Of a DNA stretch of 12,856 nt, positions 1 through 12,856 are shown one piece after another (positions within the stretch are counted from its first letter, which is position 1; the number at the start of each line of letters is the position of its first letter). The notes beneath the pieces were generated by a model that was not told where the DNA came from, ran no database searches, and saw nothing but the letters and a program-made list of their open reading frames with translations. The DNA comes from Candidatus Heimdallarchaeota archaeon B3_Heim (lineage in GTDB: Archaea; Asgardarchaeota; Heimdallarchaeia; Hodarchaeales; Hodarchaeaceae): the NCBI GenBank assembly GCA_003144275.1, contig NJBF01000068.1, positions 1 to 12,856 of the forward strand, read 5' to 3'. The position numbers and the translations under genes are program-made.

Positions 1-1094
1 TGCAGACAGTAAAAGGAACCACGAGATTTACGGTTCTTTTTATCTATATAGCCACACTTACTACACATTTGAGAGGTATACGCCTCGTTCACTCGAACTA
101 CTGTCATACCCACGAGTTTGGCTTTATATTCCAGCATCTGAACTAATTGTAAGAGGGGAAGTTGGACAAAGGCTTGGTTGGTGCGTTTTCCGAGGTTGCA
201 ATGCTGTTTCCACCCGACATTATACCCAATGACTAAGGTTTCAATATTGTGTGTTAAACAATAAGTGATGAGGCGTCGTGTGGTTTGATGGAAGAAAGCT
301 CGGAGTTTGTTCGTTCGTAAACGATGAAGACGGAGAATACGATGAGTAATCAGCTGGTGGTTGCAGGTGGAAGCCCTGGATCGATAGTGTGCAAGCTGTT
401 TGTTATACCACTGATTTATGGTCTTCACGACCCCGCCTTTGACGAGTAAGCCGTCTGACGTAGTTACGAGGTTGGTAAGTCCGAGATCAATTCCCATAGC
501 ACGGGAGGGCAAATCAGAGGAAGGAAACGCTTGCGCTTGCACTTCATAAATTAGTTCGACCACAAAGCGATCATAAAAGGGAACTAGCCGCGCACCCACA
601 CATGTTTCCGCTGTTAATGGAAGAGATCCCACTGGAAAGGCTGGAAAGCCTCGGGCCATGAGATTCCGGGCAAATAATATTTGATTATTACGGATTCGAA
701 CGCGGGGCCGAGGAAAGCTCAGTATATGCATCCCATTCTTGGGTTTATAGTTCGGGGTTCGGGGACGGGTTTGAAACTTAGTGGGATCTTTTTTCCAAGC
801 TTTCAAGGCATTAAAAAAGCCGCGCCAGACCTGTTCTATCTGTCGTAAGACTTGCTGGGGTAAATAGCTATCCGAGATGTGTTTTAATGTTAGATAAACT
901 GGTTCGTGCTTGAGCCGATGATATAGCGCCGTATACTGGAGCCATTTCCCTGTCCTGAAGAATTCTTGGCGGACCTCAAAGGTTGCGCGATTATAGAGAT
1001 TTTTGGAACAGGTGCACAAATCAACAAAAATAGGCCGCGGTTTCAGCTGCATTCGGATCGCTAACTGCGGTTGAGGGTGTTTCTTGGTGCGCAT
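1..1094 (-). CDS. tnpB: TnpB, RNA-guided endonuclease of the IS200/IS605 family; 3'-partial (364 codons visible, runs off the left edge)
   Basis: Manual translation from ATG at 1094 is stop-free to base 1: MRTKKHPQPQLAIRMQLK...SKNLYNRA...QQVLRQIEQVWRGFF...AMGIDLGLTNLVT (RuvC-I D203, nt 488-486)...LVIGYNVGWKQHCNLGKRTNQAFVQLP...LEYKAKLVG...VNEAYTSQMCSKCG...FYCL (Zn finger). SD-like GAGGTGGG lies immediately upstream. Not in the ORF track, presumably because the stop codon lies outside the window. Confidence 0.95.
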   Translation of the reverse strand, partial: MRTKKHPQPQLAIRMQLKPRPIFVDLCTCSKNLYNRATFEVRQEFFRTGKWLQYTALYHRLKHEPVYLTLKHISDSYLPQQVLRQIEQVWRGFFNALKAWKKDPTKFQTRPRTPNYKPKNGMHILSFPRPRVRIRNNQILFARNLMARGFPAFPVGSLPLTAETCVGARLVPFYDRFVVELIYEVQAQAFPSSDLPSRAMGIDLGLTNLVTTSDGLLVKGGVVKTINQWYNKQLAHYRSRASTCNHQLITHRILRLHRLRTNKLRAFFHQTTRRLITYCLTHNIETLVIGYNVGWKQHCNLGKRTNQAFVQLPLLQLVQMLEYKAKLVGMTVVRVNEAYTSQMCSKCGYIDKKNRKSRGSFYCL

Positions 1095-1115
1095 TCCCAC
1101 CTCTTTCTAGCATCT

Positions 1116-1220: not shown

Positions 1221-1231
1221 CAAATTTGATC

Positions 1232-2341
1232 ATGTTTTCTGATTATAATGAAAAACTTGCGAAATTGATTGTTCAATATGCAGTAAAAATTGAACCTGAA
1301 GACACTGTTATTATAAAAGCACCTACGATCGCTGAACCCTTGGTAAAGACTGTTTACCGCGAAACTTTACGAGCGGGAGGACATGTTATCTTAGTAGATC
1401 TTAGTTTTGATGGTCAAGATGAATTATTTTTCAAGTTCACGTCTGATAATCAACTAAAATACGTCAATCCTATTAAATTAGATATCGTGAAGACACTAAA
1501 GAAATACATCAATATCTATGCTTCCTTTAATACCAGGGATTTAACAAGTGTTCCTCCTGAGAAGAAAGTTATGGTTGCTGAAGCAGGTAAAGAGATGAAT
1601 AAAATTTTCCTTGAACGAGCAAGTACAAAGGAGCTCAGGTGGAATATTTCACCATTTCCGTGTAATGCTTTCGCTCAAGAAGCGAATATGGGCCCCTTAG
1701 AATATCTTGAATTTGCGTATAAAGCCCTTAATCTTCATCAACCCGATCCCGTGAAGTTTTGGCAGGACTTCGAGAAAAAACAACAGCACATTGTTGATAT
1801 ATTAAACAAAGGCTCTTTTTTGCAAATAATCGGTGAGGATACCGACCTTACTTTAGGAATAGCTCAACGTCCCTGGGAAAATTGTAGTGGTCATGAAAAT
1901 TTACCTGATGGCGAGGTCTTCACAGCCCCTATTGAAGATGCAGTTAATGGCACTATTCGATTCACCTATCCAGGGATTTTTTCTGGACAGGAGATAGAGG
2001 ACATTCGCTTAACCTTCAAAGATGGAAAAGTCGTCGACTTCGATGCAGATAAAGGGAAGGATTTACTAAATAAGATTGTCACCACAATTCCCAATGCTAA
2101 TATTTTAGGAGAGCTTGCTGTTGGTACAAATTATGGTATCCAGCGATTTACAAAGAATATGCTCTTTGATGAAAAAATGGGTGGAACTGTTCATCTTGCA
2201 TTAGGGGCAGGCTATCCAGAAACAGGCTCAAAGAATGAATCATCTATTCATTGGGATATACTTAAGGATATGAAATCTCCAGAATCCAAAATACTCCTCG
2301 ACGGAGAAATGATCTATAAAGAGGGAAAATGGCTAATTTAA
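1232..2341 (+). CDS. ampS: Aminopeptidase, peptidase family M29 (AmpS/PepS/AmpT-like thermophilic metalloprotease)
   Basis: Metal-site motifs NLPDGEVFTAP, LGELAVG, FDEKMGGTVHLALGAGY, SIHWDI. ATG at 1232 is preferred over the TTG at 1226 used by the ORF track. Confidence 0.93.
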   Translation: MFSDYNEKLAKLIVQYAVKIEPEDTVIIKAPTIAEPLVKTVYRETLRAGGHVILVDLSFDGQDELFFKFTSDNQLKYVNPIKLDIVKTLKKYINIYASFNTRDLTSVPPEKKVMVAEAGKEMNKIFLERASTKELRWNISPFPCNAFAQEANMGPLEYLEFAYKALNLHQPDPVKFWQDFEKKQQHIVDILNKGSFLQIIGEDTDLTLGIAQRPWENCSGHENLPDGEVFTAPIEDAVNGTIRFTYPGIFSGQEIEDIRLTFKDGKVVDFDADKGKDLLNKIVTTIPNANILGELAVGTNYGIQRFTKNMLFDEKMGGTVHLALGAGYPETGSKNESSIHWDILKDMKSPESKILLDGEMIYKEGKWLI

Positions 2342-2348
2342 TCCCCTC

Positions 2349-2366
2349 TTTACATTTTTCTTTTTT
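2349..2366 (+). terminator. Oligo-T tract, archaeal-type terminator after the aminopeptidase
   Basis: TTTACATTTTTCTTTTTT begins 8 nt after the stop codon, in a 24-bp convergent gap. Confidence 0.4.
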
Positions 2367-3232
2367 CAGCTAATTTTGAACCCTTCAATCTGCTGATTCT
2401 TTATCGAGGAAATTGCAGGATAACCAACCAATAATTTAACATTGTGAGATCTAAACTCCATTAATTTCTTATCTATGTTGGCATCTGTAATTATTAGCTC
2501 ATTCAAGCTATACCTGATAATTTTCTGAGCCTTCCTTGAGAACTCTGACCATGTAGAGTTTGTTAACTCATCTTTCCACAGATTGGCTGCTTTGAGTCTG
2601 TCTTGAAGGACACGTCGACGTAAAAGATAAGGGAGAAAATCACTGATATTGTTCTCAAATTGGTCAGTTTCGATAGCTAATGGGGTATAAATAGCCAAAG
2701 GACAGCTAATTTTCTTAGAAAAGCCATTCATTACACGATAATCCCCATTAAGAGCAAATGGAATCACTGGTGAATATGATCGACATATCGATTTAATAAT
2801 TCTTGTAGAAAGATTTTCTATCCCTAAAAACATTGGTCGATCTGTTCGTTGTCTAATTTGAGTAAAGGACTTATTAAGAGCATTCTCTACGGAGACAGTT
2901 TGATCAATATCATAGGCTGGATGCCCTGCAACCAGATTCAGACTCAGATTTGAGTTATCAGCTATCATGTCTAGGTAAGATCTCAAGAGATCATTACCAT
3001 TCTGAAATTCTAATGCCCTAACCGCTACTGTGAGAACCAACGTGTGATTAAGCTGAAGTAAAAGTTTTTTTATCTCCTTAATAGAAAGAAGATGATCTTT
3101 TCCTTCATAATCTAGAAATATAAACGAATGGTACTTATCAACGGTTAAGATAGAATTCAGAAAATCTTTTTTTCCAGAAAATTTGGTATATTTTAAAGCA
3201 ATACCTGTTAAAAACGTTTCTTTATTGTTCAG
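2366..3232 (-). CDS. Uncharacterised archaeal protein, DUF7388-like (often mis-annotated 'luciferase' in haloarchaea); start codon ambiguous (CTG 3232, or ATG 3248 with a +1 shift; ORF track uses TTG 3040)
   Basis: The frame is open from 3235 to 2366. The extension reads FLNNKETFLTGIALKYTKF...FIFLDYEGKDHLL...HT before the track's LVLTVAVR. Motifs ALK, DYEGxxHL, T..VRA..F, LVAGHPAY, AIYTP, Y..RRR and VGYPA match, in order, an archaeal family recalled from memory (not searched). Confidence 0.75.
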   Translation of the reverse strand: MNNKETFLTGIALKYTKFSGKKDFLNSILTVDKYHSFIFLDYEGKDHLLSIKEIKKLLLQLNHTLVLTVAVRALEFQNGNDLLRSYLDMIADNSNLSLNLVAGHPAYDIDQTVSVENALNKSFTQIRQRTDRPMFLGIENLSTRIIKSICRSYSPVIPFALNGDYRVMNGFSKKISCPLAIYTPLAIETDQFENNISDFLPYLLRRRVLQDRLKAANLWKDELTNSTWSEFSRKAQKIIRYSLNELIITDANIDKKLMEFRSHNVKLLVGYPAISSIKNQQIEGFKIS

Positions 3233-3568: not shown

Positions 3569-4969
3569 ATGAAAAATCGTATTAAAATAACTCTTTTGCT
3601 TGTTGGAATAATGTTTATTGCAACAATGACTGGTACTGCTAGAGCAGCACCTCAAAAAACACATGCTTTACCAGCTGAGATTAAAATTGGAGGCGTGTTC
3701 CCCATTACCGCTCGACCCGATGCTGGTCCCGATCGTCGTGATGGATTTTTGATTGCCGTCGCCGAGATCAATGCTCAAACTGGTACAGACCGGATCCTGC
3801 CGGAAGGAGTCACACTTGTTTCTAATGTTCAAGATGACTTAAACACTGCTGCTGGAGGCACTGCCGCCGCAGAAACCCTTTTAGCCTGGGGCGCGGATAT
3901 TGTCCTTGGGTCTTCTGGAAGTAGTGTAAGTGCCGCAATGGCTAGTGCACTTACTCCAACGAAAGTTGTTCAGATTTCCTATGCTTCGTCTTCGCCGTCA
4001 TTAAGCGATCGGACGTTATATCCTTACTTCATGCGAACATGTGCCTCGGATGCAGATCAAGGCTTAGCTATAGCTGAGCTTGTGAAAGCTTTCGGATGGA
4101 CAAAAGGAGCTGTAATTCATACAAGTGATTCTTATGGAACAGGTTTAATTGAAATCTTCAAAGACGCTTATACTGGAACCATCCTTACAGATCAATCATT
4201 CGAAGCTGGTGCAACTGATGTTTCTGCACAAGTTCAGTCTCTTAAAGATACAAATCCTGAGTTTATTCTAGGGAACTTCATTGATGAGGATGCAAAAACT
4301 GTTATGAAGAAAGCAAACGATCTAGATATGTTGGATTTAGTCTGGATAACCACTGATGGGTGGTCAACTCAGGCAACAATTACGGACGCAAAAGTCAAAG
4401 AAGCCATGGATTTATCAATCGGTACTAATCCCGCTCCAGCAGAGGGTACAGGAATGTCTGATTTCAATGATACTTGGTTTGATCCTGTATGGAACTATTT
4501 AGAAACCCCTGCTAACAGTCAAAGTACTGGAACTCCTTTCAATTCATATGCACCCTTTTCTTATGATACTGTATATGTCGCAGCCAAAGGGTTGGCAGCT
4601 GCTGGAACTACTGATGGTGATGCTTTATTAACTGCTCTTTATGCCGTCACACATGAAGGTGCAACCGGAAATATCAAGTTTAACGAACTTGGAGAAGTTA
4701 TCGGTAGGTACGATTATGTCCAACTCAGAGATGATACCTACTTTAAATTCGGTGAATATGCTATTCCATCAGGAGCAACCTCGGCAATAGGTGTCCTAGA
4801 TGATGCATCTGAATTCGAACTGGTAAATGGGTCAATATGGTCTATTGCAAACAATGTGGCGACATTTGTAAGATGGGATCCTGTAGATACTGCTCCTGGC
4901 TTTGAACTGCTAGCTGCAGCACTTGCTATTGGTATCTTAGTTATAACAGTGAAGAAACGAAGAAAATAA
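3569..4969 (+). CDS. livK: HAAT-family ABC transporter substrate-binding protein (type I PBP/Venus flytrap, LivK/ANF-receptor fold) with signal peptide and C-terminal PGF/CTERM-type membrane anchor; ligand not established
   Basis: Signal peptide MKNRIKITLLLVGIMFIATMTGTARA; motifs IKIGGVFP, GSSGSSVS, QISYASSSPSLSD..YPYFMRT, WITTDGW; C-terminus TAPGFELLAAALAIGILVITVKKRRK; first gene of a liv-type operon; GGTG SD-like site upstream. Confidence 0.9.
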   Translation: MKNRIKITLLLVGIMFIATMTGTARAAPQKTHALPAEIKIGGVFPITARPDAGPDRRDGFLIAVAEINAQTGTDRILPEGVTLVSNVQDDLNTAAGGTAAAETLLAWGADIVLGSSGSSVSAAMASALTPTKVVQISYASSSPSLSDRTLYPYFMRTCASDADQGLAIAELVKAFGWTKGAVIHTSDSYGTGLIEIFKDAYTGTILTDQSFEAGATDVSAQVQSLKDTNPEFILGNFIDEDAKTVMKKANDLDMLDLVWITTDGWSTQATITDAKVKEAMDLSIGTNPAPAEGTGMSDFNDTWFDPVWNYLETPANSQSTGTPFNSYAPFSYDTVYVAAKGLAAAGTTDGDALLTALYAVTHEGATGNIKFNELGEVIGRYDYVQLRDDTYFKFGEYAIPSGATSAIGVLDDASEFELVNGSIWSIANNVATFVRWDPVDTAPGFELLAAALAIGILVITVKKRRK

Positions 4970-4971
4970 CT

Positions 4972-5026
4972 GTTAGAATTCCTTGAACGTACATTCAAGG
5001 ATCTAACTTCCTTTTTTTCCTTTTTT
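4972..5026 (+). terminator. Hairpin plus U-tract between the SBP gene and livF (terminator or mRNA-stabilising element)
   Basis: GTTAGA-AT-TCCTTGAA / loop CGTACA / TTCAAGGA-TCTAAC (14 bp with a 2-nt bulge), followed by TTCCTTTTTTTCCTTTTTT. Confidence 0.65.
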
Positions 5027-5085
5027 ACTCAAAATTATTAGATTTGGATTAACATAGTTCCAACGTATTATTTGGAAGTAATTAA

Positions 5086-5823
5086 ATGAGTCAAACAGTG
5101 CTCCGTGGAGAAAAAATTTACTCTGGTTACGGAAAACTTCAGGTAATCAATGGGATTGACATTCACATAGATGAAGGTGAATTAGTAACGATTATCGGTC
5201 CAAACGGTTCTGGTAAGTCAACTTTGATTAGAACAATGATTGGATTGGTGAACTTATTCGATGGTCATGTATTTATTCGTGACAAAGAAGTAAGCAGGAT
5301 GAAACCTCATGAAATCATTGAAGCTGGTATTCCTCTTGGTTATGTCCCACAACTTTCGAATGTATTCCCAAGTTTAACAATTGAAGAAAACCTTAAAATG
5401 GGACTATTTGTCAAAAAATGGGATGATTATTACCAAGAAAGAACGCATGAAATGTTTAAACTATTTCCTATCCTGGAGGAGAGAATAAAACAAAAAGCTA
5501 GTTTGCTGAGTGGAGGAGAACGACAGATGCTAGCACTAGCGAGAGCTTTAATGCCTTCACCAGAAGTTCTTATTCTGGATGAACCTACTGCTGCATTAGC
5601 TCCCAATTTAGCGGAAGATATGTTACAATTAATTGTTTCTTTAAAGAAGGAATTGAAAATTTCAATTCTACTTGTCGAACAGCGTGCAAAACGTTCGATG
5701 GAACTCTCTGACCGTGGTTATGTATTAGTAACAGGAGAAATTGCGGCTGAAGGACCAGCAAATGAACTTTTAGCTGAAGACAAAATTAAAAAACTATACC
5801 TCGGAGTAAGAGATCGCAAATAA
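5086..5823 (+). CDS. livF: HAAT ABC transporter ATP-binding subunit, LivF-like
   Basis: Walker A GPNGSGKS, YVPQ..NVFPSLTIEENL, signature LSGGERQMLALARAL, Walker B LILDEP, LivF-type LLVEQ. Confidence 0.92.
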   Translation: MSQTVLRGEKIYSGYGKLQVINGIDIHIDEGELVTIIGPNGSGKSTLIRTMIGLVNLFDGHVFIRDKEVSRMKPHEIIEAGIPLGYVPQLSNVFPSLTIEENLKMGLFVKKWDDYYQERTHEMFKLFPILEERIKQKASLLSGGERQMLALARALMPSPEVLILDEPTAALAPNLAEDMLQLIVSLKKELKISILLVEQRAKRSMELSDRGYVLVTGEIAAEGPANELLAEDKIKKLYLGVRDRK

Positions 5824-5869
5824 GAATCAGCGTCTACAAATTCAATAAAAAGTTTTAAGTGATGATAAT

Positions 5870-6958
5870 ATGGCAGGAATTATCCCAATAGATATTGTGA
5901 GTCATACCTCTCTCATAATAGTGTATGCTTCAACCTTGATATTGTTGACAATTGGCCTAAATATGATCTATTCTGTACTTAAATTCTCGAATTTTGCTCA
6001 TGCTGAATTCATTACGTTTGGTATGTTTACCTCATGGTGGTTATTGCAAATTTTGACGTTTGCTCTCCCATGGGACTCATCAATGTATTTGATTAACAAC
6101 CTGATTATTCAAGCATTATTTGCATTTGTGATGGTTGGTATTTTGGGAATTGCAAGTGAAGTGCTAGTTTTTGGTCGATTAAAAAGACTTGCAGCCAACC
6201 CCAGATCTTTCACTGTAGCATCTATAGGAATAGGGCTCGTTATTAGAAATTTTCTTGCAATGATATTTGGCAATTTTCCAAAACCAAATAGGGGCGGTAC
6301 TTCAATTGCAGCACTTCCATTCGATATTGATATTGGTATTAAACAGACTTTGATCAGAAATGACCCATTTTTTGGAAACCAAGGAATTTTTATTACCAGT
6401 TTTGAGGTTATAATTATTCTTATGAGCATTGGAACGGTTTTCACAGTGGATTATATGTTTAGAAAAACTAAACTTGGAATTGCTATGAGAGCCACCTCTG
6501 ATTCAGTCGAATTAGCTCAAGTTTCTGGAATAAACACACGAAAAGTTGTTTTTTACACTTGGTTTCTAGCTGCTGGAATTACTGGTTTCGGTGCTGCTTT
6601 ATTGCGAGCTAATCAGCCTCGATTCAGTACTTTGGATGGTTTTATGATGCTTCTACCAATTTTCGCTGTCGTTATTCTTGGTGGCGTAGGATCTTTCCGT
6701 GGAGGGATAATTTCTGCTTTTATAATAGCAGGTGTTAGACAATTAACTGTTATTATCTTTACTCAATTTCAAAGCCCTGGCGGACTTGAATATATGATTG
6801 AAGATTTCTTTTACCGTATAACTGGGATAGAGGGATTAGTAATTACTTTTGCACCAGGTTATGCGGATGGAGTCGGTTTTTTGGTCTTAATTTTTGTACT
6901 ACTGTTCCGACCTCAAGGTATATCTGGAACCGTGGAAGCGACTAGAGAGAGGGTGTAA
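5870..6958 (+). CDS. livH: HAAT ABC transporter permease, LivH-like
   Basis: GLNMIYSVLKFSNFAHAEF, TKLGIAMRATSDSVELAQVSGIN, VILGGVGSFRGGII, LFRPQGI; multiple TM helices. Confidence 0.9.
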   Translation: MAGIIPIDIVSHTSLIIVYASTLILLTIGLNMIYSVLKFSNFAHAEFITFGMFTSWWLLQILTFALPWDSSMYLINNLIIQALFAFVMVGILGIASEVLVFGRLKRLAANPRSFTVASIGIGLVIRNFLAMIFGNFPKPNRGGTSIAALPFDIDIGIKQTLIRNDPFFGNQGIFITSFEVIIILMSIGTVFTVDYMFRKTKLGIAMRATSDSVELAQVSGINTRKVVFYTWFLAAGITGFGAALLRANQPRFSTLDGFMMLLPIFAVVILGGVGSFRGGIISAFIIAGVRQLTVIIFTQFQSPGGLEYMIEDFFYRITGIEGLVITFAPGYADGVGFLVLIFVLLFRPQGISGTVEATRERV

Positions 6959-6977
6959 ATTTAGAGGAAATGATTAA

Positions 6978-8303
6978 ATGGCTGGAAGAATATTAAAATA
7001 CGAAATGGATGAAAAATTACGAACTTTGGTTGTCGGATTCGCACTAGCTATTCCAATTCTCTACCTTTATATTTATGCTCTTCTTGCCCAGACCAATAAA
7101 TCAATATTTCTTATCGGTACTGTACTAGCAATTCTTGTTTTCTTTATAGGAGCTCTGAGCTTAGATCTGGAAGTTGGTTCAGTTGGTTTGCCGAATTTCG
7201 GAAAAGTGGCCTTCTTTGCTTTGGGTGCGTACATCTCAACGCTCCTATATAGTGTGTATAGATGGCCATTCTATCACATTTATGGTATTGGTCCAATTGC
7301 TCAATTCCTCTTCTCTAGCCTGGTAGCAATAATTATTTGCGCTTTAGTAGGCTTTTTAGTCGCTATTCCCACTGTAAAACTTCGAGCAGATTATTTTGCA
7401 ATCATGACAATTGCGGGTGGGGAGGTTATTCGATTAATACTACAATATGAGAAACGTTGGTTTTGGGCACCAGCCCCAGTAGGGCCACCTCAACAAGTTA
7501 TCTCAAACAGAGCAATAGTCGAATTCACCACAGGCCTTTATCCATTTAACAAGACTTTAGCTTACTTTGGATTTACATTTTTTGAAGATAGTAATTTAGG
7601 TTCGGTCTTTCTCTGGCAAATAGTAGTGATAGTAATTTTTATTCTTATAGCCATTACGACTTATTGGTTTGTTCAACAAATAAGAAAATCTCCTTATGGA
7701 AGAACACTACGTGCGATTCGTGAAGACGATATCACTGTTACTTCTGTTGGTAAAGATGTTTCTCGCTTTCGTTGGCAAGTAACTACCCTTGCAGCATGTA
7801 TTGCTGGTTTGGCTGGTATTATGTACGCAATGACTTTCAAAGCGTTTGAAGCAGGAGATTTCAGGCCATTTCTTACTTTTGATCTTTATATTTTCATAAT
7901 AATTGGAGGATTGGGGAATAGTCGTGGAGCATTTGCAGGAACAGCGCTTGTTCAAATGTTTCTCCGAGCAGCACAAGTTCAAGAGGTAAAAGAAAACATT
8001 TCTCTCTATTTAGGAAGTGAATCACCAGTCATTGGTCCACTGTTCGAATTTTTACAGTTGGATGTGTTTATAAATCCAGATAACATGAGATTAGTTATCT
8101 TGGGAGTTATTTTGATTCTTTTTCTGTTATTTATGCCTGCAGGATTAATTCCTGAACCAAAAACAAACAATGAAAAGTATTTAAAGCAATTGACACCTGA
8201 AGAACGCATGCGTTCTGATGAGGCTGTTTCAGCAAGGCAGAGTCTTACCGAAAGAGAAAGAATAGGTAATGAAGATACTACTGAACCAAGTTCAAAGTTT
8301 TAG
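6978..8303 (+). CDS. livM: HAAT ABC transporter permease, LivM-like, with a charged C-terminal tail
   Basis: GLPNFGKVAFFALGAY, LRADYFAIMTIAGGEVIRL, SPYGRTLRAIREDD, IIGGLGNSRGAFAG, FMPAGLIPE. Confidence 0.9.
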   Translation: MAGRILKYEMDEKLRTLVVGFALAIPILYLYIYALLAQTNKSIFLIGTVLAILVFFIGALSLDLEVGSVGLPNFGKVAFFALGAYISTLLYSVYRWPFYHIYGIGPIAQFLFSSLVAIIICALVGFLVAIPTVKLRADYFAIMTIAGGEVIRLILQYEKRWFWAPAPVGPPQQVISNRAIVEFTTGLYPFNKTLAYFGFTFFEDSNLGSVFLWQIVVIVIFILIAITTYWFVQQIRKSPYGRTLRAIREDDITVTSVGKDVSRFRWQVTTLAACIAGLAGIMYAMTFKAFEAGDFRPFLTFDLYIFIIIGGLGNSRGAFAGTALVQMFLRAAQVQEVKENISLYLGSESPVIGPLFEFLQLDVFINPDNMRLVILGVILILFLLFMPAGLIPEPKTNNEKYLKQLTPEERMRSDEAVSARQSLTERERIGNEDTTEPSSKF

Positions 8304-8311
8304 GAGAATAG

Positions 8312-9220
8312 ATGTTGGAGTCACTAGAGTTGGAAAAAGACCCAGATAATATTAGTTTATCAGCTCAGAATATTCACAAATACTTTGGGGGAGTAAAAGC
8401 TCTTGAAGGGGCTTCTGTTGTAGTTTCGAAGAATAAATTAATCTCATTAATAGGTCCTAATGGATCGGGGAAAACTACTCTTTTCAATGTCATTTCTTGT
8501 TGGTCACCAAAATCTCATCCAGACGATCTATTAGAAGAAGATGAAGTAAAAATTCAGAAACGATTCCTTGACGGGATTAATAGAAAATTTGGAGGAAAGG
8601 AAGAATCTGAGGAAACTCCTTCTGAAGAAGTTGGTTCTGTTGATTTTGAAGACCTTAGATTGGATGGCCTAAACGCTCATGAAGCGGCGTTAACGGGCAT
8701 GATGCGTACGTTCCAAACGACGCGAAATTGGCCAAAATTAACCGTTCTTGAAAATTTACTTGTAGCACCTCAACATCAGACAGGGGAGTCTTTCATAAAT
8801 ATCTTCTTTAAAAGAAAACAAATAGAGGAAGAAGAACGTATCAATACTTTGAAAGCATTAGAAATATTAGACTTTCTTGAAATTACGCATATCCGGGATC
8901 AAATCGGAGAAGAACTTTCAGGTGGGCAATTGAAATTATTAGCCTTAGGACGATTGTTAATGACTGCTCCCCGATTAATTCTATTGGACGAACCAATGGC
9001 CGGAATAAATCCAACCTTAGGTAACAAAATCATGGATAAAATTTTGGAACTCAAAGTAGACTCAACAATCTTCCTGATTGAACACAATATGGATGTAGTG
9101 TTTAACTACTCCGATGAAATCTTTGTCATGGCTAGAGGTAAGATCATTGCTCAAGGTACTCCCAACGAAATTGAATCTAATAAAGAAGTGATTGAGGCAT
9201 ACTTGGGAGCAGATTACTGA
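8312..9220 (+). CDS. livG: HAAT ABC transporter ATP-binding subunit, LivG-like, with an acidic insertion after Walker A
   Basis: KYFGGVKAL, Walker A GPNGSGKTTLFN, RTFQ, LTVLENL, LSGGQ, LLDEPMAGIN, IEHNMD, EVIEAYLG; GGAG SD-like site upstream. Confidence 0.92.
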   Translation: MLESLELEKDPDNISLSAQNIHKYFGGVKALEGASVVVSKNKLISLIGPNGSGKTTLFNVISCWSPKSHPDDLLEEDEVKIQKRFLDGINRKFGGKEESEETPSEEVGSVDFEDLRLDGLNAHEAALTGMMRTFQTTRNWPKLTVLENLLVAPQHQTGESFINIFFKRKQIEEEERINTLKALEILDFLEITHIRDQIGEELSGGQLKLLALGRLLMTAPRLILLDEPMAGINPTLGNKIMDKILELKVDSTIFLIEHNMDVVFNYSDEIFVMARGKIIAQGTPNEIESNKEVIEAYLGADY

Positions 9221-9236: not shown

Positions 9237-10481
9237 ATGCCCATCTCCCAGAAAAAAGATATTTCTGCAAAATCCAGTTTAATTTCCGCATTTCTTGTCC
9301 ATTTATTTGTGGAAATTCCATATTTTATCTTCCCCGTTTTAGTACTAGTTGTTGGGGAAGATCTAAATTTGGGGGAGTTCATGTGGATTGGGTTGGGATC
9401 TATTGGTACTATAGGAGCTTTAGCTGCAGGTTTACCAGCACCATTAGTTGGATGGTTTTCGGATCGTTCTCGGAGAGGCATGATGATGTGTCTTAGTTTA
9501 ATCCTTAGCGCGTTGGGAGCTTTCATAATTGGGTTATCCGACTCTTCCCTCGTCATTACAATCTTTAGTTTTGGCCTTATAGGTCTAGGAGTTGGACTGT
9601 ATCATCCTCCGGGATTATCGTGGGTCGCATCTGCTTTTAAGGATGAAGAAAATGGGGGTTACTCCTCATATATTAATAGAATTTTAGGAGTTCACGGAGT
9701 AGGAGGTACAATTGGTTCCGCTGTTGGGCCCATATCTGTTTTTTTCTTATTAAATATAATGAATTGGCGGCAAATTTATCTATTATGGTCGTTTCCCTTA
9801 TTTCTTCTAAGTTTATTATTTTGGGTGTTTGTAGCAAGATTTGAATCTCCTCGGGAAAAAGAGAATAATATTCACGTTAAGAACGAATCAACTAATTTTC
9901 GAATTAAACTTAAATCAAATATAAGCCCTACAATGCTAATAATATTTGTATTTATGGTTCTTATGTCACTAACATGGGGGATGGTTAGTTTTGTACTAGC
10001 GCCATTTCTCTCTGAAGTCAAAGGGTTTGATATTTCACACGCAGCCTTATTTATTGGAGTGTCCCACCTGTTTGGAGCATCAGGTCAACTTTTAGGAGGT
10101 GTGATGGCGGATAAATATACGGAGAAAGTAGCTCTCCTATTTGCATCGGCTCTTCAAGGTGTTGTCATACTTGGAATTTACATCCTCAACCCTCCAGCGG
10201 TCCTGTTTGCATTATATATGATTCTATTCATTGTCAATGCTATTTTTTGGCCCACAACAAATAGCTTTCTAGCTAAAAATACCACTCAAATCGGCAGCGC
10301 CTTTGGTGGATTTATGTTAACAGTGAATGTCGTACGAGCAGCAGGACCAACCATTGATGGGTTTTTAATCACATTGAATCCAAGTAATTATCTATTAATT
10401 TTCGTTTTCGCAGTTATATTTTCAATTGCAGCTTTTCTGACACTAACTATGGTGAAAGGAAAATCCGATTTCTCTTCTTAA
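9237..10481 (+). CDS. Major facilitator superfamily transporter, substrate unknown
   Basis: ~12 hydrophobic segments; motif A-like GWFSDRSRRG and GVMADKYTEK; YHPPG in TM4; starts 16 bp after livG. Confidence 0.88.
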   Translation: MPISQKKDISAKSSLISAFLVHLFVEIPYFIFPVLVLVVGEDLNLGEFMWIGLGSIGTIGALAAGLPAPLVGWFSDRSRRGMMMCLSLILSALGAFIIGLSDSSLVITIFSFGLIGLGVGLYHPPGLSWVASAFKDEENGGYSSYINRILGVHGVGGTIGSAVGPISVFFLLNIMNWRQIYLLWSFPLFLLSLLFWVFVARFESPREKENNIHVKNESTNFRIKLKSNISPTMLIIFVFMVLMSLTWGMVSFVLAPFLSEVKGFDISHAALFIGVSHLFGASGQLLGGVMADKYTEKVALLFASALQGVVILGIYILNPPAVLFALYMILFIVNAIFWPTTNSFLAKNTTQIGSAFGGFMLTVNVVRAAGPTIDGFLITLNPSNYLLIFVFAVIFSIAAFLTLTMVKGKSDFSS

Positions 10482-10867
10482 GACTCTGGAAGGCAATAAA
10501 TAATGGCTTCAATTTCTAGATGTACTTCTCTAAGTAAAGGGCCAACTTGCACAGTCGATCTTGCAGGGGGGTTTTCAGGGAAAAATTCTGAGTAAGCAGT
10601 GTTAAATCTGTCAAATAATCTCATATCTGTCAAAAAAACTGTTGTTTTTACTGTATTTTTCAATGTTGTACCTGCTGCCTCAGCAATTGCTGAAAGATTT
10701 TGCATAACTTGTCGAGTCTCATCTTCTATGTTTTCGTTAATTAACTTCTTTGTTTCAGGATTGTAAGCGATTTGTCCAGCAGTAAACAAAAAATCGCCAG
10801 CTTTGATCCCTTGACTATAATAACCTCCAGGAGGAGTCCCCTTATCCGTTTTAATAACTTCTACCAT
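10478..10867 (-). CDS. ridA: RidA-family (YjgF/YER057c/UK114) reactive imine/enamine deaminase
   Basis: P.GGYYSQGIKAGDFLFTAGQI, QVMQNL, VKTTVFLTDM, FNTAYSEFF, PPARSTVQV (catalytic Arg), LEIEAI (Glu). Confidence 0.93.
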   Translation of the reverse strand: MVEVIKTDKGTPPGGYYSQGIKAGDFLFTAGQIAYNPETKKLINENIEDETRQVMQNLSAIAEAAGTTLKNTVKTTVFLTDMRLFDRFNTAYSEFFPENPPARSTVQVGPLLREVHLEIEAIIYCLPES

Positions 10868-10938: not shown

Positions 10939-12753
10939 TCAGTAATAATACCAGATGCTTCTATAATCAGCTGGATCTTCTCCACTATTTTTTAATTTAT
11001 CTAAATAAGACTGAATACTAACATCAGTATAGAGATATGGATTTACTTTAGCTAGATTTTTCTCCCAAGGATGGAAAGAATACATTCTTCTTCCATCTGG
11101 AAGTATGGAAATCAATTCATGATCTTGCCAAGCACGTAAGTGATTCTTTCCCAAAAAGGGGACGTTGAAAACTGGTTCATCGCCTCGAAAGATGCCTGGT
11201 AAAAGACGGGCTTCTTCCTTTCTTTCTTGTAAAATCCGTGCCATTGGAACAGCGTAATCTTCAATTTCTTCTTTGCCTTTCATATTAAAATTATAATATG
11301 GATCAATTCCAATTTCTTTAAGTTTCATTCTAAGTACAACAGTCTCAAACCGTCTACTATTATAAAAAGTAAAAACTTGTTGATTATAGACATCTAGTTG
11401 GCTTTGCTTAACTTTTTTTATTGCATCAGCCATATGATAAGTTATTTCATATGGATGTTCGACATGAAGAACCATACTGAGATATCGTTTTCCAATTTCT
11501 TGATACTTGGCAAATATTTCGCATAACTCGGTAGTTATTCTCATCGGAACAGTTATAGGGATTCTAGTTGCGATACGAATGCTTCTAATGCTTTCGATTT
11601 GGGATAACGCCTTAATTACATATTCAATACGATTGTTTGACATAACGAGAGGATCTCCACCCGTAATTAGAACATCCATTATCTCTTGGTGCTCTTCGAA
11701 CCATTTCAGAGCATTATCAAGGTTTTCTTTATCAGCCATCGCTCCTGGCATAAACGGACACGTTATTTCCCAATTGCGCTGACAATAAACACATATTTGA
11801 GGACAGGAATCGTAGGGCTTGATAATTGCAACTTTAGGATATCTTCGGGTTACTAGATTTACTGGCGAAGTATCTGATTCTCTCATAAAATCGAGGGATG
11901 ATCGATCTTCTCCTACTTCTATCATTTTTTTAACATATGACATAGGCGGAATAACTTGTTTACGGACAGCAATATCATTCGGACTCGGTTTTTCGTCCAT
12001 TAGATGCAAATAATGGGGAGTGATACCAAAAGGAATATTATTCTCAAGAACTAGATGTATGGCATCTTCTTCTTCAGGTGTAAGTTCAATTAATTGTTTT
12101 AAAATCGAAAAACCTTCCATATCTTTGAAAACATTTTTGAATTGCCATCTCCAATCCATCCAATCATCCTCTGTACCCCCTAAGGTATCTAATATCTTTA
12201 GCTTATGGTTAATTCTTTCTTTAATGATTTCTTCATTAAATCCACTTGGGTATCTCTTCAGATGATTACTCATGCTCTTTGACAATTCATCCAGATAATT
12301 AGACCGTTTAATACTTGCTTCCTGACCGTAAATTCCCTCAAAACTTGGAATATTTAATTTATCTAAGAACAATGGAGGATAAATATTTGTTTTTCCATTT
12401 ATCGCATAAAAGAGGTGGTGAAATTCTTGTATAAATCCATATCCAACCTCAGCATCTCCAGTTGATGCAGCTTTCCACAAATATTCGAGTGATGAACTTA
12501 GTGCTAATCGTTCATTCCGTGGAGAGATGATATTTTTCATACAGCGTACAGCTTCTTTTAGAATAATATAATGCCAAGAAGCGAGTTGAGTTACATCACG
12601 CCTATAAGCCCACTCTAATCCTTCTAAATAGTGTATCATCTTTTCTCTAGCTTCTTCTACTGTGTTACTGCTTTTTAGCAACATATATATAGCAGGGTCA
12701 GCTTTCCAACAAGTCTCCCACCTAGGCTCCGCAATTTCGATATCCGACAACAT
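10939..12753 (-). CDS. Long-form KamA-family radical SAM/PLP aminomutase; active-site residues point to glutamate rather than lysine 2,3-aminomutase
   Basis: DWMDWRWQ, ITPHYL, RRYP, CPQICVYCQR (CxxxCxxC, nt 11805-11782), DVLITGGDPL, RIATR, HVEHPYEI, NQQV, PYYNFNMK, FNVPFLGK (putative PLP Lys, nt 11148-11146); ~180-aa N-terminal extension relative to clostridial KamA. Confidence 0.88.
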   Translation of the reverse strand: MLSDIEIAEPRWETCWKADPAIYMLLKSSNTVEEAREKMIHYLEGLEWAYRRDVTQLASWHYIILKEAVRCMKNIISPRNERLALSSSLEYLWKAASTGDAEVGYGFIQEFHHLFYAINGKTNIYPPLFLDKLNIPSFEGIYGQEASIKRSNYLDELSKSMSNHLKRYPSGFNEEIIKERINHKLKILDTLGGTEDDWMDWRWQFKNVFKDMEGFSILKQLIELTPEEEDAIHLVLENNIPFGITPHYLHLMDEKPSPNDIAVRKQVIPPMSYVKKMIEVGEDRSSLDFMRESDTSPVNLVTRRYPKVAIIKPYDSCPQICVYCQRNWEITCPFMPGAMADKENLDNALKWFEEHQEIMDVLITGGDPLVMSNNRIEYVIKALSQIESIRSIRIATRIPITVPMRITTELCEIFAKYQEIGKRYLSMVLHVEHPYEITYHMADAIKKVKQSQLDVYNQQVFTFYNSRRFETVVLRMKLKEIGIDPYYNFNMKGKEEIEDYAVPMARILQERKEEARLLPGIFRGDEPVFNVPFLGKNHLRAWQDHELISILPDGRRMYSFHPWEKNLAKVNPYLYTDVSIQSYLDKLKNSGEDPADYRSIWYYY

Positions 12754-12856
12754 TATTAAAAACCAATTTCTATTTTTTTAGAAAATAAATGATAGACCTT
12801 AATGGAGAGGTACAATTAAAGTAATCACCATTTTTCTTTCATTATCCTATTGTTAA

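What the first reader, a model, noticed from the sequence alone, without database searches (positions are those of the whole stretch)
11140..11810. Long-form KamA homolog carries the glutamate 2,3-aminomutase signature (Lys/Asn in place of Asp293/Asp330)
In Clostridium subterminale lysine 2,3-aminomutase, Arg134 binds the carboxylate, Asp293 (PYYIYQCD) and Asp330 (FVVDAPGGGGK) bind the epsilon-amine, and Lys337 holds PLP. Here Arg is kept (CQR, nt 11778-11776), PYYNFNMK puts Lys at the 293 position (nt 11280-11278), FNVPFLGK puts Asn at the 330 position (nt 11166-11164), and the PLP Lys is kept in a loop one residue shorter. Lys/Asn at these positions is the reported hallmark of glutamate 2,3-aminomutase (Ruzicka and Frey). 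The likely 'lysine aminomutase' annotation is therefore probably wrong. The inferred product is beta-glutamate, a known compatible solute of marine archaea, or another acidic beta-amino acid made by an uncharacterised ~600-aa subfamily.
Basis: partly seen in the sequence, partly recalled or inferred. Interest (0 to 1): 0.75.

Follow-up and report, generated by a model that had tools for sequence, protein, structure and literature searches.

The report
Long-form glutamate 2,3-aminomutase in an Asgard archaeon
This gene most likely encodes a radical-SAM enzyme that moves the amino group of glutamate to make (or use up) beta-glutamate, not the lysine enzyme its relatives are labelled as; the reading is sound, but a 2022 paper already reported it for this enzyme branch in methanogens.

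Summary

- **Signature residues.** K492 sits at the LAM Asp293 position. N530 sits at the Asp330 position in two of three alignments. R326 matches Arg134 and K536 matches the PLP lysine.
- **Conservation.** Across 139 long-form homologs, N530 is kept in 138 and K492 in 131.
- **Clade.** The protein belongs to a deep ~600-aa clade found in at least 531 species of anaerobic archaea and bacteria. The clade includes M. jannaschii MJ0634 (TM 0.94). Its nearest short-form relatives are the bacterial glutamate 2,3-aminomutases, which also carry Lys/Asn.
- **Prior work.** The idea is not new. Tunckanat et al. [quoted passage not shown] As I recall the abstract, that enzyme is a form with a ~160-aa N-terminal extension.
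- **Other DNA.** This scan has noted the same clade before on other genomes.
- **What is new here.** The host is a Hodarchaeales archaeon in which the gene is accessory (5 of 22 genomes of the genus). The neighbourhood is conserved: a Liv-type ABC importer, an MFS carrier, RidA and a divergent class-I aminotransferase. That leaves open a scavenging role rather than an osmolyte role.

Verdict: a new member of a known kind, of moderate-to-low interest.

The parts
10939..12753 (-). Long-form KamA-family radical SAM/PLP aminomutase gene (604 aa, P0001), a predicted glutamate 2,3-aminomutase of the MJ0634 type
   Evidence: ORF and translation. TIGR00238 scores 328 bits against a cut-off of 199. AF2 model pLDDT 91.7. 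LAM 2A5H aligns at Z 42.6, rmsd 1.8 A over 335 residues. MJ0634 matches at TM 0.94.
12184..12753 (-). N-terminal helical extension, residues 1-190. It is absent from lysine 2,3-aminomutase; residues from about 142 onward are shared with bacterial glutamate 2,3-aminomutase.
   Evidence: Alignment A1. Foldseek query ranges start at 142 for Q185C5 and about 187 for LAMs. The domain model is all helical with pLDDT 81. No structural relative rises above noise; best Z is 6.0.
11782..11805 (-). CxxxCxxC motif for the [4Fe-4S]/SAM cluster (C317, C321, C324)
   Evidence: Sequence. Each Cys is kept in 137-138 of 139 homologs.
11776..11778 (-). R326, equivalent to LAM Arg134 (binds the alpha-carboxylate). 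It follows Q325, giving the 'CQR' motif shared with glutamate 2,3-aminomutases; LAM has 'CTR'.
11653..11661 (-). GGD motif (G365-D367) of the SAM-binding strand
   Evidence: Aligned and near-invariant.
11278..11280 (-). K492, at the position of LAM Asp293 and of the Lys in glutamate 2,3-aminomutase
   Evidence: Lys in 131 of 139 homologs.
11185..11187 (-). R523, an invariant Arg at the one-residue insertion that is specific to the long forms, just before the substrate-side strand
   Evidence: hhalign. Kept in 139 of 139 homologs. Its role is inferred only.
11164..11166 (-). N530, most likely at the position of LAM Asp330 and of the Asn in glutamate 2,3-aminomutase
   Evidence: Searches support this; one search gives a different register. 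Kept in 138 of 139 homologs.
11146..11148 (-). K536, the predicted PLP (internal aldimine) lysine, in an 'LGK' motif as in glutamate 2,3-aminomutases
   Evidence: Kept in 137 of 139 homologs.
10942..11136 (-). C-terminal domain specific to the long forms (residues 540-604, ending WYYY). It replaces the Cys-rich Zn tail of LAM (LAM_C).
   Evidence: Alignment A1. Pfam finds no LAM_C.
10478..10867 (-). RidA-family enamine/imine deaminase, 71 nt downstream on the same strand
   Evidence: PF01042. TIGR00004 scores 134.7 against 106. Syntenic in two relatives of the same genus.
9237..10481 (+). MFS transporter, convergent with RidA
   Evidence: PF07690. Syntenic in three relatives.
3569..9220 (+). 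Liv-type ABC importer: a binding protein with a C-terminal anchor, an ATPase, two permeases and a second ATPase
   Evidence: PF01094/PF13458 and translations. Syntenic in three relatives.
1226..2341 (+). M29 aminopeptidase
   Evidence: PF02073, 288 bits.
3..1100 (-). TnpB-family gene that bounds the island; multi-copy in the genome
   Evidence: NF040570, 169.6 bits. Copies on C61, C69, C44 and C57.

Best explanation
The gene encodes a long-form (MJ0634-type) glutamate 2,3-aminomutase.

Proposed mechanism, inferred by homology to lysine 2,3-aminomutase:
- The [4Fe-4S] cluster on C317/C321/C324 reductively cleaves SAM to a 5'-deoxyadenosyl radical.
- The radical abstracts H from C3 of glutamate, which is held as an external aldimine on PLP after displacing K536.
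- The amino group migrates from C2 to C3 through an azacyclopropylcarbinyl radical, and the hydrogen is returned. The reaction is reversible.
- R326 holds the alpha-carboxylate.
- K492 and N530, possibly helped by the clade-invariant K494 and R523, take the place of the two Asp that bind the lysine epsilon-amine and hold the gamma-carboxylate instead.

Shown here: family membership, conservation of all catalytic motifs, the Lys/Asn signature, kinship with MJ0634 and with bacterial Eam, and the conserved neighbourhood.

Inferred: the substrate, the residue roles, and the direction of flux in the cell. The enzyme either makes beta-glutamate as a compatible solute or feeds imported beta-glutamate or glutamate into metabolism through the neighbouring class-I aminotransferase.
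For: Family and fold:
- KamA family model met (328 against 199 bits). Among the equivalog models the best is glutamate 2,3-aminomutase (214.6), ahead of AblA (164), Arg-AM (155) and EpmB (122).
- The AF2 model (pLDDT 91.7) superposes on LAM 2A5H at Z 42.6, rmsd 1.8 A over 335 residues.
- Foldseek ranks MJ0634 first (TM 0.94, 46% identity, full length). C. difficile glutamate 2,3-aminomutase Q185C5 comes second, ahead of every lysine enzyme.

Signature and tree:
- K492, N530, K536, R326 and Q325 align with the Eam residues and are near-invariant in 139 homologs.
- The tree shows the long forms as one clan (100/100) attached to the Lys/Asn grade. The Asp/Asp sequences form a separate clan (99/89).

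Genome:
- The genome has no second KamA-family gene and no AblB.

Literature:
- Tunckanat et al. [quoted passage not shown]
- From my memory of the abstract, it is MmarC7_1783, with a ~160-aa N-terminal extension. It was predicted from substrate-binding residues and confirmed by detecting beta-glutamate after expression in a methanogen.

Context in other lineages:
- Methanothrix loci place an MscS channel and a Na+/H+ exchanger next to the gene, which fits an osmolyte role there.
Against: - No activity is known for this protein or for any Asgard member.
- It is only about 46% identical to the Methanococcales member, and a long branch (1.5 changes per site) separates it from the bacterial Eam clade.
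- It fails NCBI's Eam equivalog cut-off by a wide margin (214.6 against 650).
- One alignment method puts F529, not N530, at the 330 position.
- A 2005 review states that early NMR labelling ruled out a glutamate aminomutase as the source of beta-glutamate in methanogens.
- I could not read the 2022 paper, nor show by sequence that its enzyme lies in this clade.
- The extra invariant basic residues (K494, R523) could point to a different acidic substrate.
Confidence: 0.68

Rival explanations
1. It is a 2,3-aminomutase of the same mechanism that acts on a different non-basic amino acid, such as aspartate, glutamine, 2-aminoadipate or an imported beta-amino acid. Glutamate is not its physiological substrate.
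For: - Long branch and failure of the Eam equivalog cut-off.
- Invariant K494 and R523 are specific to the clade and absent from bacterial Eam.
- Gene contexts are very diverse. They include AlaDH/PNT-like plus saccharopine-dehydrogenase genes in Bacteroidota and tandem paralogs in a Bacillota locus, which may mean more than one specificity within the clade.
Against: - The signature residues are the same as in proven Eam.
- The active-site residues are near-invariant across the clade, which argues for one substrate.
- A clade member reportedly yields beta-glutamate in vivo (Tunckanat 2022; details from memory).
Confidence: 0.2
2. It is a lysine 2,3-aminomutase, as JGI labels its homologs. [quoted passage not shown]
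For: Names given by one source. General KamA-family membership.
Against: - Both Asp residues that bind the lysine epsilon-amine are replaced by Lys and Asn.
- The AblA model scores 164 against a cut-off of 525.
- No AblB was found in the 94%-complete genome.
- The tree places the protein apart from the Asp/Asp clan.
Confidence: 0.03
3. It is not an amino-acid aminomutase. It uses the KamA scaffold plus its extra N- and C-terminal domains for other radical chemistry, for example on a peptide, a protein or a cofactor precursor.
For: - About 250 residues of extra domains have no known fold relative.
- Sequence conservation is unusually high across phyla, 60-67% between Asgard, Thermoplasmata and WOR-3.
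- There is no universal partner gene.
Against: - The PLP lysine, the alpha-carboxylate Arg and all SAM and cluster motifs are conserved.
- Importers for small solutes recur next to the gene.
- The core superposes on LAM at 1.8 A.
Confidence: 0.05

Closest known systems
Archaeal long-form glutamate 2,3-aminomutase (M. maripaludis C7 MmarC7_1783, Tunckanat et al. 2022) and its M. jannaschii homolog MJ0634 (Swiss-Prot Q58051, still 'Uncharacterized KamA family protein')
   Same: Full-length architecture: an N-terminal helical extension, the KamA core and a non-LAM C-terminus. The structural match to MJ0634 is TM 0.94 with 46% identity. The Lys/Asn signature is also shared.
   Different: The host is an Asgard (Hodarchaeales) archaeon, not a methanogen. 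The gene is accessory within its genus. It sits with an ABC importer, an MFS carrier, RidA and an aminotransferase rather than alone. That MmarC7_1783 belongs to this clade rests on my memory of the abstract and not on a sequence comparison.
Bacterial glutamate 2,3-aminomutase Eam (C. difficile Q185C5; NCBIfam TIGR04368; Ruzicka and Frey 2007)
   Same: Lys at the 293 position, Asn at the 330 position, and the 'CQR', 'PYYxF' and 'LGK' motifs. It is the closest short-form relative by sequence, by tree and by fold. It shares the last ~45 residues of the N-terminal extension.
   Different: Only 26-33% identity, and 214.6 bits against the 650-bit cut-off. The long form adds about 140 more N-terminal residues and a different C-terminal domain. 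It also has a one-residue shorter PLP loop and the invariant K494 and R523.
Lysine 2,3-aminomutase (C. subterminale KamA, PDB 2A5H; archaeal AblA)
   Same: Fold (Z 42.6, rmsd 1.8 A). Also the CxxxCxxC motif, the GGD motif, the PLP lysine and the alpha-carboxylate Arg, and by inference the radical/PLP mechanism.
   Different: Asp293 and Asp330 are replaced by Lys and Asn. There is no LAM_C zinc tail and no AblB partner. The AblA model scores 164 against 525.

Membership tests
KamA family radical SAM proteins (TIGR00238) | Score above the curated family cut-off | tested here: met
   328.4 bits against 199.2; 330.3 bits in the genome search.
KamA family radical SAM proteins (TIGR00238) | CxxxCxxC cluster motif, GGD SAM motif, PLP-binding Lys and alpha-carboxylate Arg | tested here: met
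   C317/C321/C324, G365-D367, K536 and R326 are aligned and near-invariant.
Bacterial glutamate 2,3-aminomutase equivalog (TIGR04368) | Score above the curated equivalog cut-off | tested here: not met
   214.6 bits against 650. A true member, P0209, scores 693.
Bacterial glutamate 2,3-aminomutase equivalog (TIGR04368) | Lys and Asn in place of LAM Asp293 and Asp330 | tested here: met
   K492. N530; an alternative register appears.
Archaeal long-form glutamate 2,3-aminomutase (MJ0634 / MmarC7_1783 type) | Full-length similarity, including the N-terminal extension of about 160-190 aa | tested here: met
   Q58051 MJ0634: TM 0.94, 46% identity, residues 12-604. One clan with 100/100 support.
Archaeal long-form glutamate 2,3-aminomutase (MJ0634 / MmarC7_1783 type) | Conversion of L-glutamate to beta-glutamate | not testable with these tools
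   This needs an enzyme assay or metabolite detection. The literature claim for a clade member was seen only as a title.
Archaeal long-form glutamate 2,3-aminomutase (MJ0634 / MmarC7_1783 type) | The characterised enzyme MmarC7_1783 lies in the same clade as this protein | not tested
   The paper is not held and I could not fetch a Methanococcus maripaludis sequence. The link rests on my memory of the abstract.
Lysine 2,3-aminomutase AblA/KamA (TIGR03820) | Equivalog score, Asp293/Asp330 and an AblB partner | tested here: not met
   164.3 bits against 525.4. Lys/Asn at the two positions. No AblB found in the 94%-complete genome.
Arginine 2,3-aminomutase (TIGR04468) and EpmB (TIGR03821) | Equivalog score | tested here: not met
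   155.2 bits against 600, and 122.5 bits against 369.3.

The most novel reading that the evidence does not exclude
In sediment-dwelling Hodarchaeales, and independently in Thermoproteota, Anaerolineales and Atribacterota, the long-form enzyme may be the entry step of an uptake-linked module rather than an osmolyte synthase.

Proposed route:
- A binding-protein-dependent importer (Liv-type ABC or TAXI-TRAP) brings in beta-glutamate. From memory, beta-glutamate is a major free amino acid of marine pore waters.
- The reversible aminomutase converts it to L-glutamate.
- The divergent class-I aminotransferase passes it to 2-oxoglutarate. The ADP-forming acyl-CoA synthetase-like gene next door is the only other gene found that could belong to a fermentative route onward to ATP.

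This would be the first described route for beta-glutamate assimilation, and a new nutritional trait of Asgard archaea.
Probability: 0.22. Interest if true: 0.6.

Novelty: new member of a known kind. Interest (0 to 1): 0.33.

Why it matters
Databases still call this widespread clade 'lysine 2,3-aminomutase', 'KamA family radical SAM protein' or 'uncharacterized' (the Swiss-Prot entry for MJ0634). It occurs in at least 531 species in the genome collection searched. Reading it as a glutamate 2,3-aminomutase corrects metabolic reconstructions of many uncultured anaerobes, including Asgard archaea. The annotation gap is real, but the biochemical idea has been in the literature since 2022.

What could still be learned from this locus is physiology. 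The open question is whether beta-glutamate is made as a compatible solute or taken up and consumed. The recurring adjacency to importers, and in two lineages to one aminotransferase subfamily, makes that question testable.

Tried and rejected
- **Papers not held.** Ruzicka and Frey 2007 and Tunckanat 2022 are not in the library. Only titles and citing sentences could be read, and searches for MJ0634 or MmarC7_1783 found no text.
- **Fetching the M. maripaludis or M. jannaschii protein for direct alignment.** No tool gave it. Cluster look-ups of ten representatives returned only Bipolaricaulota, Vulcanimicrobiota or unnamed sources. AFDB clusters gave no names.
- **N-terminal domain fold search.** The best Z was 6.0, which is below the noise level for helical bundles, so nothing can be said about its origin.
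- **Rfam scan of the window.** No match.
- **Expression.** No RNA holder was listed.
- **Co-transfer of the importer with the aminomutase.** The window's binding protein is only 23-27% identical to the KamA-adjacent binding proteins of Thermoproteota. That is no closer than a paralog in its own genome (30%), so there is no evidence for a shared mobile module.
- **Universal partner gene.** Clustering the neighbours of 87 loci found none.
- **Fusion partners as clues.** TetR, and DnaJ plus M54 peptidase, occur in single representatives. They are too sporadic to use and may be gene-call artefacts.
- **Pore-water beta-glutamate.** Two literature searches gave nothing usable, so that point rests on memory.
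Full report
**Observation.**
The window carries a 1815-nt ORF on the minus strand (10939-12753) that encodes a 604-aa protein, P0001. The motifs CPQICVYCQR, PYYNFNMK and FNVPFLGK are all there.

phmmer against the PDB finds only lysine 2,3-aminomutase 2A5H (E 1e-37). It aligns PYYNFNMK with PYYIYQCD, so K492 falls on Asp293.

**Family placement.**
- Pfam sees only a weak Radical_SAM match.
- NCBIfam places the protein in the KamA family (TIGR00238, 328 bits against a cut-off of 199).
- It reaches no equivalog cut-off: glutamate 2,3-aminomutase 214.6 against 650, AblA 164 against 525, arginine 2,3-aminomutase 155 against 600, EpmB 122 against 369.
- The word-indexed search finds thousands of relatives of almost constant length (598-620 aa). 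They are 60-67% identical across Hodarchaeales (up to 90%), Odinarchaeota, Thermoplasmata, Methanosarcinales, Altiarchaeales and WOR-3 bacteria. Their names are only 'KamA family radical SAM protein' or 'lysine 2,3-aminomutase'.
- The exhaustive search of 50%-identity representatives shows a sharp gap. About 25 full-length long-form clusters score at least 390 bits, and the best short forms score 148 bits or less.
- The best short forms are a true glutamate 2,3-aminomutase equivalog (P0209, 693 bits against 650) and Eam-like sequences. Lysine 2,3-aminomutase equivalogs (P0217, P0223) come just behind.

**The signature.**
In default MAFFT and in a profile-profile comparison of 36 long forms against 17 short forms (hhalign, probability 100%), four residues line up:
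- K492 aligns with the Lys of Eam-type sequences and the Asp293 of LAM.
- N530 aligns with the Asn of Eam and the Asp330 of LAM.
- P532 aligns with the conserved Pro.
- K536 aligns with the PLP Lys.

A third method (L-INS-i) gives a gapless register that puts F529 at the 330 position. I regard the Asn assignment as likely, because that register breaks the conserved [DN]-x-P motif. It is not proven, because I could not inspect coordinates.

Further residues are shared with Eam and differ from LAM:
- Gln after the third Cys ('CQR' against 'CTR').
- Phe in 'PYYxF' (Tyr in most LAM-type sequences).
- 'LGK' against 'GGK'.

Across 139 long forms N530 is kept in 138, K492 in 131 (Gln in 5), K536 in 137, R326 in 137 and each cluster Cys in 137-138. 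The clade-specific R523 is kept in all 139 and K494 in 136.

**Tree.**
A maximum-likelihood tree of 19 long and 30 short forms (393 columns, LG+C20) gives these results:
- The long forms form one clan (100/100) on a long branch of 1.48 changes per site.
- That clan attaches to the part of the tree occupied by Lys/Asn sequences, which form a grade.
- The Asp/Asp sequences form one clan (99/89).

The Lys/Asn state is therefore shared with the neighbouring Eam-like lineages and was not invented separately. The tree is unrooted.

**Structure.**
- The AF2 model built on the long-form alignment is confident (pLDDT 91.7, pTM 0.90).
- VIA-align superposes residues 181-566 on LAM 2A5H at Z 42.6, rmsd 1.8 A over 335 residues. 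The next hits are generic radical SAM barrels at Z 15 or less.
- Against Swiss-Prot models the top hit is Q58051, 'Uncharacterized KamA family protein MJ0634' of Methanocaldococcus jannaschii (TM 0.94, 46% identity, residues 12-604).
- Second is Q185C5, the C. difficile glutamate 2,3-aminomutase (E 3e-27, from residue 142). It ranks ahead of all lysine 2,3-aminomutases, which score E 3e-24 or worse and start at about residue 187.
- The first ~140 residues form a helical bundle with no structural relative above noise.
- The C-terminal 65 residues replace the zinc-binding LAM_C tail.

**Literature.**
- A 2005 review says early NMR labelling had ruled out a glutamate aminomutase for beta-glutamate in methanogens.
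[quoted passage not shown] - The paper itself is not held.
- From my memory of its abstract, the enzyme is MmarC7_1783, a KamA homolog with a ~160-aa N-terminal extension. It was assigned from its putative substrate-binding residues and confirmed by finding beta-glutamate after expression in a methanogen.
- I could not align that sequence with P0001, so the link is strong but indirect. It rests on the architecture and on the Methanococcales homolog MJ0634.

**Distribution and context.**
- *Host.* The host genome is a Hodarchaeales MAG (3.95 Mb, 94% complete). The window is a whole contig.
- *Copy number.* This is the only KamA-family gene in the genome, and no AblB is found.
- *Within the genus.* Only 5 of 22 genomes carry the gene, and several near-complete ones lack it.
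- *Synteny.* The carriers keep the order Liv-type ABC importer, MFS, RidA, aminomutase. A class-I aminotransferase lies divergently upstream.
- *Own genome.* The aminotransferase lies on contig C69, whose end overlaps the window's end by 127 identical bases. An ADP-forming acyl-CoA synthetase-like gene and a second TnpB follow it.
- *Wider spread.* In the species-level genome collection at least 531 species encode a relative. They are mostly uncultured anaerobes of sediments and hot environments: Methanothrix, Methanomassiliicoccales, Desulfurococcales including Ignicoccus pacificus, Aminicenantes, Anaerolineales, Atribacterota and Bacteroidales including Prolixibacter denitrificans.
- *Partners.* No partner gene is universal.
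- *Importers.* 13 of 87 loci have a Liv-type ABC importer within 6 kb. These are Asgard, Thermoproteota and relatives, and Anaerolineales, where the genes lie on one strand and often follow an IclR regulator. Five more loci have a TAXI-TRAP system (Atribacterota, Desulfurococcales).
- *Independence.* The binding proteins in the different phyla are not close relatives, so these adjacencies arose separately. I did not test the enrichment statistically.
- *Methanothrix.* There the neighbours are an MscS channel, the same aminotransferase subfamily and a Na+/H+ exchanger with a TrkA-N domain. That fits osmoadaptation.
- *Habitat.* Contigs 90-95% identical to the gene occur in marine sediment, cold-seep and seawater metagenomes.

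**Mechanism and role.**
By homology with lysine 2,3-aminomutase, the enzyme should use the SAM-derived 5'-deoxyadenosyl radical and a PLP aldimine to shift the amino group between C2 and C3. R326 would sit on the alpha-carboxylate. K492 and N530, perhaps with K494 and R523, would sit on the gamma-carboxylate.

I put glutamate as the substrate at about 0.68. The cellular direction is open:
- **Osmolyte synthesis.** This has the 2022 precedent and the Methanothrix context.
- **Uptake-linked use.** The importer, the aminotransferase, the acyl-CoA synthetase-like gene and the aminopeptidase of this island equally fit uptake and use of glutamate or beta-glutamate.

The reaction is reversible, so sequence alone cannot decide.

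**Verdict.**
The family is not uncharacterised, so this is a new member of a known kind in a new host lineage.

Earlier notes of this scan had seen the same clade on other genomes and called it unstudied. The 2022 paper changes that assessment.

Noticed in passing
window 1-127 and 12730-12856: The first 127 bases are identical to the end of contig C30, and the last 127 bases are identical to the end of contig C69. These look like assembly-graph overlaps. C69 continues the locus with the divergent aminotransferase (C69 12334-13626, 94% identical to the relative's gene), an ADP-forming acyl-CoA synthetase-like gene and a TnpB.
   Followed up: yes
window 3-1100 (-): A TnpB-family gene, cut by the contig end, has copies 70-89% identical on at least six other contigs. 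Together with a second TnpB on C69 it brackets the roughly 15-kb island that holds the aminomutase.
   Followed up: partly
window 3569-4969 (+): The Liv-type binding protein has a paralog 82% identical on contig C93, and only that gene is duplicated. It ends in a hydrophobic stretch followed by basic residues, like an archaeal C-terminal membrane anchor.
   Followed up: partly
P0140, P0145, P0235, P0252 (representatives): Some full-length long-form homologs have lost the CxxxCxxC motif, and P0140, P0235 and P0252 have also lost the PLP lysine. They are likely inactive or repurposed derivatives.
   Followed up: no
L088 635-4358 (Bacillota MAG): Two long-form KamA paralogs lie in tandem, 23 nt apart on one strand. 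This may mean there is more than one specificity within the clade.
   Followed up: no
L070, L071, L073 (Bacteroidota): Here the long-form gene is followed on the same strand by an AlaDH/PNT-like gene. In L073, the one locus where I annotated them, a saccharopine-dehydrogenase-like gene comes next. L051 has a peptidase-C45/AAT-family gene 12 nt downstream. These could be catabolic partners for a beta-amino acid.
   Followed up: partly
L029 9018-9953 and L030 8777-9676 (Methanothrix and relatives): An MscS-type mechanosensitive channel gene lies directly upstream of the long-form aminomutase, on the same strand in L029. In L030 an aminotransferase and a Na+/H+ exchanger with a TrkA-N domain lie downstream.
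   Followed up: partly
window 2366-3040 (-): A 224-aa ORF has only a sub-threshold match to DUF7388 (23.5 bits against 27). Its function is unknown.
   Followed up: no
P0131, P0134 (representatives): Single representatives carry fusions to the long-form enzyme: an N-terminal TetR domain in one, and DnaJ plus a C-terminal M54 peptidase in the other. These may be real fusions or gene-calling artefacts.
   Followed up: no
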